From Escherichia coli (GTDB lineage: Bacteria; Pseudomonadota; Gammaproteobacteria; Enterobacterales; Enterobacteriaceae): DNA of 64,000 bases. The position numbers were made by a program. The stretch lies in NCBI RefSeq assembly GCF_003018255.1, contig NZ_CP027440.1. One strand, written 5' to 3'. Positions 9,001-10,575 of this stretch are shown in pieces. How positions within the stretch are numbered: the first letter of the stretch is position 1; every line of letters starts with the position of its first letter.

Positions 9001-10575
9001 CCAGCTTCTTTTAAAGCGCGTGTTTCTTGTTGTGAAGTTTCATCTAACTGACGACGTAACCACAACGCCACAACAGCTAACACAGCTCCTAACGCGAAAG
9101 GAATACGCCATCCCCACTCTCTAAGTGCAGCGTCTTCCATGGTGTGTTGTAAAACCACGACAACCAGTAGAGCTAGCAGTTGCCCGCCGATCAACGTCAC
9201 ATACTGAAATGATGCGTAAAAACCTTTGCGCCCTTCAACGGCAACTTCACTCATATAGGTGGCGCTGGTGCCATATTCTCCGCCAACGGATAATCCCTGA
9301 AATAAACGAGCGAGAAGCAATAATGCCGGAGCCCACGTACCTATAGTTTCATAACCTGGGAGGCAGGCGATAACCAGCGATCCGAAACACATCATACACA
9401 CCGATAACAGCATCGATTTTTTGCGACCATGTTTATCGGCTATGCGGCCAAATAGCCAACCGCCTATTGGGCGCATCAGGAATCCCGCAGCAAAAACACC
9501 TGCTGTTTGCAGTAGTTGAGTCGTCGTGTTCCCGGAAGGGAAGAAGATGTGGGCGAAGTAGAGTGAACAGAACGAGTAGACATAGAAATCGAACCACTCG
9601 ACCAGATTACCTGAAGAGGCCCCCACAATTGCCCAAATGCGGCGACGAGTATCACTACTTGTCAGTTTGCTGTCTGCCGTTACAGTACTTTCAGCCATGC
9701 CATTATGTCTCCTGCCGTAATCCGATGCTTTTGTCGGTCGCTTTTGTTTATTTCTATTGGTAAAGAAAATGTTATACATTTGTTGCATATCATTATGCAA
9801 CCTTAACCACGAATTTAGTTAGCAGGAAAATGGTTATTGAGGAGCTTAAGGATAAATTTCTGGTAAGGAGGACACGTATGGAGGTGGGCACGTTGGGGAA
9901 GCCGTATTCGCTGCTGAATCTAGCTTATGTGGGAGTATAAGACGCGCCAGCGTCGCATCCGGCATTTATTCTGCTCCAGCGCAAAAAGGCCATCCTGACG
10001 GATAGCCTTCTGCTTAATTTGATGCCTGGCAGTTCCCTACTCTCGCATGGGGAGACCCCACACTACCATCGGCGCTACGGCGTTTCACTTCTGAGTTCGG
10101 CATGGGGTCAGGTGGGACCACCGCGCTAAGGCCGCCAGGCAAATTCTGTTTTATCAACACGTCTCGTTATGACATGTCGATTTAATCTGTATCAGGCTGA
10201 AAATCTTCTCTCATCCGCCAAAACATCTTCGGCGTTGTAAGGTTAAGCCTCACGGTTCATTAGTACCGGTTAGCTCAACGCATCGCTGCGCTTACACACC
10301 CGGCCTATCAACGTCGTCGTCTTCAACGTTCCTTCAGGACTCTCAAGGAGTCAGGGAGAACTCATCTCGGGGCAAGTTTCGTGCTTAGATGCTTTCAGCA
10401 CTTATCTCTTCCGCATTTAGCTACCGGGCAGTGCCATTGGCATGACAACCCGAACACCAGTGATGCGTCCACTCCGGTCCTCTCGTACTAGGAGCAGCCC
10501 CCCTCAGTTCTCCAGCGCCCACGGCAGATAGGGACCGAACTGTCTCACGACGTTCTAAACCCAGCTCGCGTACCA

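What the first reader, a model, noticed from the sequence alone, without database searches (positions are those of the whole stretch)
10336..10356. 23S rRNA hairpin with compensatory substitutions relative to the common E. coli sequence
Near the 3' end of the 23S gene the hairpin reads CUGACUCCUUGAGAGUCCUG (gene sense), where I recall CUGACCCUUUAAGGGUCCUG for most E. coli rrn operons; the changes are paired on both stem arms and preserve the helix. This is probably operon-specific heterogeneity in a known variable helix.
Basis: partly seen in the sequence, partly recalled or inferred. Interest (0 to 1): 0.12.

Follow-up and report, generated by a model that had tools for sequence, protein, structure and literature searches.

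The report
Common variant of 23S helix 98
The flagged hairpin is helix 98 of the E. coli 23S ribosomal RNA, and the "unusual" sequence is in fact the commonest of at least five natural versions, which get copied between a cell's seven rRNA operons, so this is an ordinary and already described polymorphism.

Summary
It covers 23S positions 2789-2808, i.e. helix 98 (H98) of rrlG in an E. coli rrnG operon.

In 5,426 complete E. coli genomes the flagged form is the majority allele, at about 64% of rrl copies. In K-12 MG1655 the flagged form is in 4 of 7 copies (A, C, E, H) and the recalled form in 3 (B, D, G), as already published.

Only one of the two claimed paired changes is compensatory: C2794:G2802 becomes U:A. 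U2796C and A2799G lie in the apical loop.

The allele is not tied to an operon. rrnG carries three different H98 alleles in this window, in its closest complete genome and in K-12. Differences from that closest genome are packed into the rrn operon in patches, which indicates gene conversion.

All alleles keep the 5-bp stem and A2800, the loop base known to dock onto H1/H94.

Verdict: a real feature, already known, of low interest.

The parts
10335..10354 (-). The flagged 20-mer CUGACUCCUUGAGAGUCCUG, 23S positions 2789-2808 in rrlB numbering
   Evidence: Single exact match. Position mapping from the alignment to K-12 rrlB.
10338..10352 (-). Helix 98 hairpin, G2791-C2805. The 5' arm is 10348-10352, the apical loop (2796-2800) is 10343-10347 and the 3' arm is 10338-10342.
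   Evidence: The 5-bp stem pairs in 98.7% of cells over 15 distinct alleles, and two pairs covary. Rfam's LSU consensus has a hairpin on GAC...GUC. PMC10578474 names 2796-2800 as the H98 apical loop.
10349..10349 (-). U2794 (C in rrlB). It pairs with A2802 at window 10341 (G in rrlB). This is the one truly compensatory change.
   Evidence: The pair 2794:2802 occurs as AU, UA, CG and UG across alleles.
10347..10347 (-). C2796 (U in rrlB). A loop-edge change that removes the possible U2796-A2800 pair.
   Evidence: C.A in the 3 alleles that carry C2796. P(A2800 unpaired) is 0.999 with C2796 and 0.19 with U2796.
10344..10344 (-). G2799 (A in rrlB). An apical-loop change.
10343..10343 (-). A2800, the loop base that flips out to dock on G9 (H1), stacked on the A10-U2629 pair. 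It is conserved here.
   Evidence: A in 14 of 15 alleles and in all 15 rrl copies compared. Its structural role comes from PMC10578474.
13134..13135 (-). G9 (13135) and A10 (13134) at the base of H1, tertiary partners of A2800
   Evidence: Invariant in the 15 copies. Coordinates. Role from PMC10578474.
10514..10514 (-). U2629 (H94), fourth member of the H1-H94-H98 nucleotide quartet
   Evidence: Invariant in the 15 copies. Coordinate. Role from PMC10578474.
10239..13143 (-). 23S rRNA gene (rrlG), 2905 nt
   Evidence: Rfam RF02541, 2865.7 bits, full length. The closest genome annotates the same coordinates.
10024..15039 (-). rrnG operon: 16S 13498-15039, tRNA-Glu 13337-13412, 23S 10239-13143, 5S 10024-10139. 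It lies between clpB and kgtP.
   Evidence: Same gene order as K-12 rrnG.

Best explanation
The flagged sequence is the apical hairpin of helix 98 (H98, 23S 2791-2805) of rrlG, in the allele that is the commonest in E. coli. H98 is a surface helix whose sequence is only loosely constrained. What is kept is a 5-bp stem and the loop adenine A2800, which flips out and docks on G9/A10/U2629 to tie the 5' and 3' ends of the 23S rRNA together. Within those limits several alleles coexist in the species, and often within one genome. They differ by compensatory stem changes (2793:2803 and 2794:2802) and by free loop changes (2796-2799). Gene conversion between the seven rrn operons moves these alleles from copy to copy. 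As a result, which allele sits in rrnG differs from strain to strain. Shown here: the identity of the helix, the allele frequencies, the covariation, the conservation of A2800 and its partners, and the lack of any tie to one operon. Inferred: gene conversion as the cause in this particular lineage, and that the alleles are functionally equivalent.
For: Identity. The site is in a full-length 23S gene at positions 2789-2808. Rfam's consensus has a hairpin there. PMC10578474 places 2796-2800 in the H98 apical loop. Frequencies, out of about 37,900 rrl places in 5,426 genomes: flagged allele 24,386, rrlB type 8,074, GACUCCCUGAGAGUC 1,912, GAGACUUAGAGUCUC 1,880, GAGACUUUAAGUCUC 524. K-12 split: A, C, E, H against B, D, G, as published in PMC11046459. 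Covariation: 98.7% of cells paired, 2793:2803 as CG or GC, 2794:2802 as AU, UA, CG or UG, with a U-G intermediate; 0 of 500 shuffles and none of the slid registers reach this. A2800, G9, A10 and U2629 are invariant in 15 copies. Not operon-specific: rrnG carries three alleles in three strains. Conversion: against the closest genome there are 5 SNPs in about 36 kb of flank and 49 differences in about 5 kb of rrn operon, in patches that match alleles found in other copies. The measured rrn conversion rate of 3.6e-4 per genome per generation is more than 100 times the point-mutation input (PMC8022953).
Against: The window's own genome is not in the collection. Its six other rrl copies were not seen, and no donor copy for a conversion can be named. 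The closest genome is only a proxy (99.89% identity, and it carries an extra element at ssrA). The patchy differences could also come from recombination with DNA of another strain rather than exchange between operons. Functional equivalence of the alleles was not tested. PMC11046459 reports activity differences between K-12 operons but traced them to H91 and H92, not H98. About 3% of E. coli copies carry alleles I did not identify.
Confidence: 0.9

Rival explanations
1. The H98 alleles are not equivalent. C2796 (the flagged allele and its 1-nt variant) cannot pair with A2800. That would leave A2800 free to dock on H1/H94 and give a more stable 50S subunit. Selection would then explain why this allele is the commonest and why several alleles persist within genomes.
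For: ViennaRNA gives P(A2800 unpaired) = 0.999 for the C2796 alleles and 0.19 for the U2796 alleles. PMC10578474 shows that forcing the A2800-U2796 pair, as the MS2 tags do, abolishes docking and lowers 50S thermostability. The two C2796 alleles together make up about 69% of copies. The same 15-mer recurs in nine non-E. coli genomes.
Against: In the solved rrnB-type ribosome, which has U2796, A2800 is already flipped out and docked (PMC10578474). The competing pair is worth only about 0.9 kcal/mol and evidently loses. Mutating A2800 itself has no effect on activity at 37 C. O157:H7 genomes carry the U2796 allele in all 7 copies. No H98-specific effect was reported in PMC11046459.
Confidence: 0.07
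2. The allele is operon-specific heterogeneity: each rrn operon keeps its own characteristic H98 sequence.
For: Within any one genome the copies do differ, for example K-12 A, C, E, H against B, D, G.
Against: rrnG carries GACUCCUUGAGAGUC in the window, GAGACUUUAAGUCUC in the 99.9%-identical relative and GACCCUUUAAGGGUC in K-12. rrnH, rrnB, rrnD and rrnE also differ between K-12 and JNE112863. Many genomes carry a single allele in all 7 copies.
Confidence: 0.02
3. The difference is an assembly or sequencing artefact, for example collapsed or mis-phased rRNA repeats.
For: rRNA repeats are a classic source of assembly error, and the source assembly of the window is unknown.
Against: The exact 44-mer occurs 24,386 times in 4,525 independent complete genomes. 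The four changes keep the helix. The allele is also in the K-12 MG1655 reference.
Confidence: 0.01

Closest known systems
K-12 MG1655 H98 polymorphism (rrlA/C/E/H versus rrlB/D/G), described in PMC11046459
   Same: The same two 15-nt hairpin alleles at 23S 2791-2805. The window's allele is identical to that of K-12 rrlA, C, E and H.
   Different: In K-12 the rrnG copy carries the other allele (GACCCUUUAAGGGUC). Here rrnG carries the A/C/E/H-type allele.
H1-H94-H98 tertiary quartet of the E. coli 50S subunit (Nissley, Kamal and Cate 2023, PMC10578474)
   Same: A2800, G9, A10 and U2629 are all present and unchanged in the window. The 5-bp H98 stem is kept.
   Different: The published structures and mutants are on the rrnB allele (U2796, A2799). 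The window has C2796 and G2799, a combination not examined in that paper.
Gene conversion and concerted evolution among E. coli rrn operons (PMC8022953)
   Same: Patchy, allele-swapping differences confined to the rrn operon, including the 23S-5S spacer, beside near-identical flanks. This is the pattern that paper measured experimentally.
   Different: Here it is inferred by comparing two natural strains, not observed directly. No donor copy could be identified.

Membership tests
Bacterial 23S rRNA (Rfam RF02541 LSU_rRNA_bacteria) | Full-length match to the covariance model above the gathering score | tested here: met
   2865.7 bits against a gathering score of 50, model positions 1-2925 of 2925.
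Helix 98 of 23S rRNA domain VI | Position 2791-2805 in E. coli rrlB numbering, with apical loop 2796-2800 | tested here: met
   Alignment to K-12 rrlB. PMC10578474 assigns U2796, A2799 and A2800 to the H98 apical loop.
Helix 98 of 23S rRNA domain VI | Hairpin in the curated consensus secondary structure at this site | tested here: met
   The Rfam structure line shows <<<...>>> on GAC...GUC, with the extra E. coli residues treated as insertions.
Helix 98 of 23S rRNA domain VI | Stem supported by compensatory changes | tested here: met
   Two of the 5 pairs change on both sides and 98.7% of cells are paired. The slid registers give 16-48%.
H1-H94-H98 nucleotide quartet | A2800, G9, A10 and U2629 present | tested here: met
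   All four bases are present in the window and in 14 other copies.
H1-H94-H98 nucleotide quartet | A2800 flipped out and docked on G9 in this allele | not testable with these tools
   This needs a structure of a ribosome carrying the C2796/G2799 allele. Folding only predicts that A2800 is unpaired.
Intragenomic rrn heterogeneity maintained and shuffled by gene conversion | Different alleles among copies of one genome | tested here: met
   K-12 is split 4:3, JNE112863 5:2, and 7 of 21 genomes of other genera are heterogeneous. The window's own genome could not be examined.
Intragenomic rrn heterogeneity maintained and shuffled by gene conversion | Differences between close relatives concentrated in the rrn operon, in patches matching alleles of other copies | tested here: met
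   49 differences in about 5 kb of rrn operon against 5 in about 36 kb of flanks. The H98 patch equals JNE rrlC/A, the 541-552 patch equals JNE rrlD/B/E and the 16S h33 patch equals JNE rrsD and K-12 rrsH.
   rrnG carries three different alleles in three strains.

The most novel reading that the evidence does not exclude
The H98 alleles could be a long-lived polymorphism shared across genera of Enterobacteriaceae. The same 15-mers occur in Klebsiella, Kluyvera, Citrobacter, Enterobacter, Trabulsiella and Buttiauxella, sometimes two per genome. They might be kept by selection because they tune how readily A2800 docks onto H1/H94, and so tune 50S stability. On this reading the C2796 alleles are the 'pre-released' state, and mixed genomes produce ribosome pools with different stability.
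Probability: 0.06. Interest if true: 0.35.

Novelty: already known. Interest (0 to 1): 0.07.

Why it matters
It matters little. The K-12 H98 polymorphism, the variability and dispensability of H98, its one functional contact (A2800) and gene conversion among rrn operons are all published. The practical lesson is a caution about reference bias: the canonical "E. coli 23S" sequence (rrlB) carries a minority H98 allele, found in about 21% of copies in the species. Departures from it should therefore not be read as unusual. The allele-frequency survey here may help anyone designing H98 tags or probes or typing rrn operons: five alleles cover about 97% of copies, and identical alleles are shared across genera.

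Tried and rejected
1. A 402-nt megablast could not separate the alleles, because 4 mismatches still give 99% identity. I replaced it with 44-mers in which every 28-base seed word spans all the variable sites.

2. A position-by-position comparison of the window with JNE112863 gave a spurious 14,816 mismatches because of a 4-nt register offset. I redid it with blastn and MAFFT.

3. Two guesses at rrnA and rrnC coordinates in JNE112863 missed, and one request exceeded the size limit. I recalibrated from glnA and cyaA.

4. The genome-contig scan returned only 88 stretches and did not include K-12-type E. coli. It is a sample and not a census, so I draw no frequency claims across species from it.

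5. The folding z-score of the isolated hairpin is not significant. I rejected it as a test for a 15-nt helix.

6. The ViennaRNA energies for the forced 6-bp structure of the C2796 alleles include a C.A "pair" and are not meaningful, so I ignored them.

7. I considered that the window's 16S A264 and the 23S 1219-1230 cluster might be private mutations. Both are common alleles in the species.

8. I rejected the artefact reading (see rivals).

Full report
**What is at the site.** The window holds a complete rRNA operon on the minus strand: 5S at 10024-10139, 23S at 10239-13143, a tRNA at 13340-13412 and 16S at 13498-15039. It lies between kgtP and clpB, the position of rrnG in K-12. Alignment with the seven K-12 MG1655 rrl genes places it at 23S positions 2789-2808 in rrlB numbering. 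Nucleotides 2791-2805 are helix 98 (H98). PMC10578474 assigns U2796, A2799 and A2800 to the H98 apical loop, and Rfam's curated bacterial LSU structure has a hairpin on exactly the GAC...GUC arms, with the extra E. coli residues treated as insertions.

It differs at 2794 (C>U), 2796 (U>C), 2799 (A>G) and 2802 (G>A). It is not the majority form. In K-12 MG1655 it is in rrlB, rrlD and rrlG, while the flagged form is in rrlA, rrlC, rrlE and rrlH. The same split is stated in PMC11046459.

**Species-wide counts.** I used 44-mer queries in which every 28-base megablast seed must span all the variable sites, searched against 5,426 complete E. coli genomes (about 37,900 rrl places). The results were:
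- Flagged allele GACUCCUUGAGAGUC: 24,386 places in 4,525 genomes, median 6 per genome, about 64%.
- rrlB type GACCCUUUAAGGGUC: 8,074 places in 2,388 genomes, about 21%.
- GACUCCCUGAGAGUC: 1,912 places in 425 genomes, about 5%.
- GAGACUUAGAGUCUC: 1,880 places in 366 genomes, about 5%.
- GAGACUUUAAGUCUC: 524 places in 90 genomes, about 1.4%.
- About 3% of places remain unassigned.

**Are the changes compensatory?** Only partly. I collected 15 distinct H98 sequences from E. coli and from a flank-anchored scan of one genome per species. Over these, the 5-bp stem 2791-2795:2801-2805 pairs in 98.7% of cells. No shuffle out of 500 and no slid register comes close. Two pairs covary: 2793:2803 (C-G or G-C) and 2794:2802 (A-U, U-A, C-G, plus one U-G intermediate). 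So C2794:G2802 to U2794:A2802 is a true compensatory change. Positions 2796 and 2799 are not partners. Position 2796 faces A2800, forming U-A in 11 alleles and C.A in the three alleles with C2796, and 2799 is in the loop. Minimum-energy folds agree: the flagged allele forms a 5-bp stem with a 5-nt loop, and the rrlB type forms a 6-bp stem with a 3-nt loop.

**What the helix does and what is conserved.** PMC10578474 shows that H98 is a poorly conserved surface helix that tolerates large insertions without loss of growth or of activity at 37 C. Its loop base A2800 flips out, pairs with G9 and stacks on the A10-U2629 pair, linking H1, H94 and H98. Disrupting this contact lowers 50S thermostability, either by A2800U/G mutation or by tags that drive A2800 into a pair with U2796. 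In my data A2800 is A in 14 of 15 alleles. A2800, G9, A10 and U2629 are invariant in the 15 rrl copies compared, including the window. The variation therefore avoids the one nucleotide with a demonstrated role. A side observation: with C2796 the isolated hairpin leaves A2800 unpaired with probability 0.999, whereas with U2796 it is predicted paired 81% of the time. Since A2800 is docked even in the U2796 (rrnB) structure, I regard this as a small effect at most. It is the basis of the rival and novel readings.

**Is it operon-specific?** No. The window's exact genome is not in the collection. The closest complete genomes are JNE112863 and JNE23-011. JNE112863 is 99.89% identical over window 1-41167 and carries an extra element of about 11 kb after ssrA. 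I retrieved all seven rrl genes of JNE112863. Its rrlG, H, D, B and E carry GAGACUUUAAGUCUC, and only rrlC and rrlA carry the flagged allele. rrnG thus holds three different H98 alleles in the window, JNE112863 and K-12.

**Evidence for gene conversion.** Differences between the window and JNE112863 number 5 SNPs in about 36 kb of flank and 49 in about 5 kb of rrn operon. They fall in tight patches: the 5S-23S spacer, H98, 23S 1171-1230, 23S 541-552 and 16S h33. Several of these patches match alleles present in other copies. This is the signature of gene conversion, or of recombination confined to the rrn repeat. PMC8022953 measured rrn gene conversion in E. coli at 3.6e-4 per genome per generation, more than 100 times the point-mutation input, and its events included swaps of the 23S-5S spacer. 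That conversion acted in this particular lineage is an inference, because no donor copy could be seen.

**Beyond E. coli.** The flank-anchored scan is a sample and not a census (88 stretches). In it, 7 of 21 genomes with at least two retrieved copies are heterogeneous at H98. The flagged 15-mer occurs in nine non-E. coli genomes: Enterobacter, Kluyvera, Buttiauxella, Klebsiella indica and K. michiganensis, Trabulsiella and Citrobacter koseri. In some of these it coexists with the rrlB type in the same genome. I did not resolve whether this reflects old shared polymorphism, transfer or convergence.

**Verdict.** The interpretation, heterogeneity in a known variable helix, is right in kind and wrong on operon specificity. 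Everything essential is already published, so the novelty is "already known" and the interest is low.

Noticed in passing
window 10140-15039 compared with L099 (JNE112863): Against the closest complete genome, 49 of 54 real differences fall inside the rrn operon in tight patches: the 5S-23S spacer at 10152-10226, then 10340-10350, 11915-11974, 12592-12603 and 14018-14033. Only 5 SNPs lie in about 36 kb of flanks. The operon is a mosaic of alleles found in other rrn copies.
   Followed up: yes
window 14002-14038 (16S positions 1002-1038, helix 33): The window's rrsG carries the helix-33 allele that K-12 has only in rrsH (identical at all 12 variable sites). JNE112863 has it only in rrsD, and JNE112863's own rrsG has a third form. 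PMC11046459 singles out this h33 polymorphism as characteristic of operon H in K-12.
   Followed up: partly
window 14776 (16S position 264): A in gene sense, where all 14 K-12 and JNE112863 copies have C. It looked like a private mutation but occurs at 2,740 places in 811 E. coli genomes, for example in all 7 copies of CFT073.
   Followed up: yes
window 11915-11934 (23S 1211-1230): A hairpin cluster G1219 C1220 ... G1229 U1230 that matches none of the 14 comparison copies. It is again paired changes: U-A to G-U and G-C to C-G. The cluster is common in the species (about 5,200 places in 1,086 genomes), but its combination with C1211 is in only 18 records.
   Followed up: yes
window 12592-12603, 13002-13007, 11270-11275 and 10929-10939 (approximate; 23S 541-552, 137/142, 1869-1872, 2203-2215): The window's rrlG differs from all seven K-12 copies at several other variable hairpins, including a 2-nt insertion near 1869 of the kind K-12 has only in rrlA. 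H98 is only one of about seven such sites in this gene.
   Followed up: partly
window 41167/41168 (3' end of ssrA); L099 41352-52590 approx.: The two closest genomes carry an element of about 11.4 kb integrated just after ssrA, which the window lacks. Its genes are an integrase, an AAA ATPase and DUF4435 pair, a phage polarity suppression protein, an ogr/Delta-like protein and a primase-helicase, i.e. a P4-like satellite. So the window comes from a related but different strain.
   Followed up: partly
window 20870-22217: An IS4-family transposase gene, annotated as frameshifted in the collinear relative, lies between bamD and raiA. The window is identical to that relative across this stretch.
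   Followed up: no
L098 (NZ_JAAXLK010000048.1, 1067-nt contig): A contig filed under Levilactobacillus tujiorum carries an enterobacterial 23S 3' end (253/261 identical to the window, H98 = GAGACCUUGAGUCUC as in Enterobacter hormaechei). This is most likely contamination in that assembly.
   Followed up: no
L081-L085 (Klebsiella michiganensis), L049-L050 (Klebsiella indica), L025-L026 (Kluyvera genomosp. 3): Other genera carry the same E. coli H98 15-mers, two different ones within a single genome. I did not resolve whether this is shared ancestral polymorphism, transfer or convergence.
   Followed up: partly
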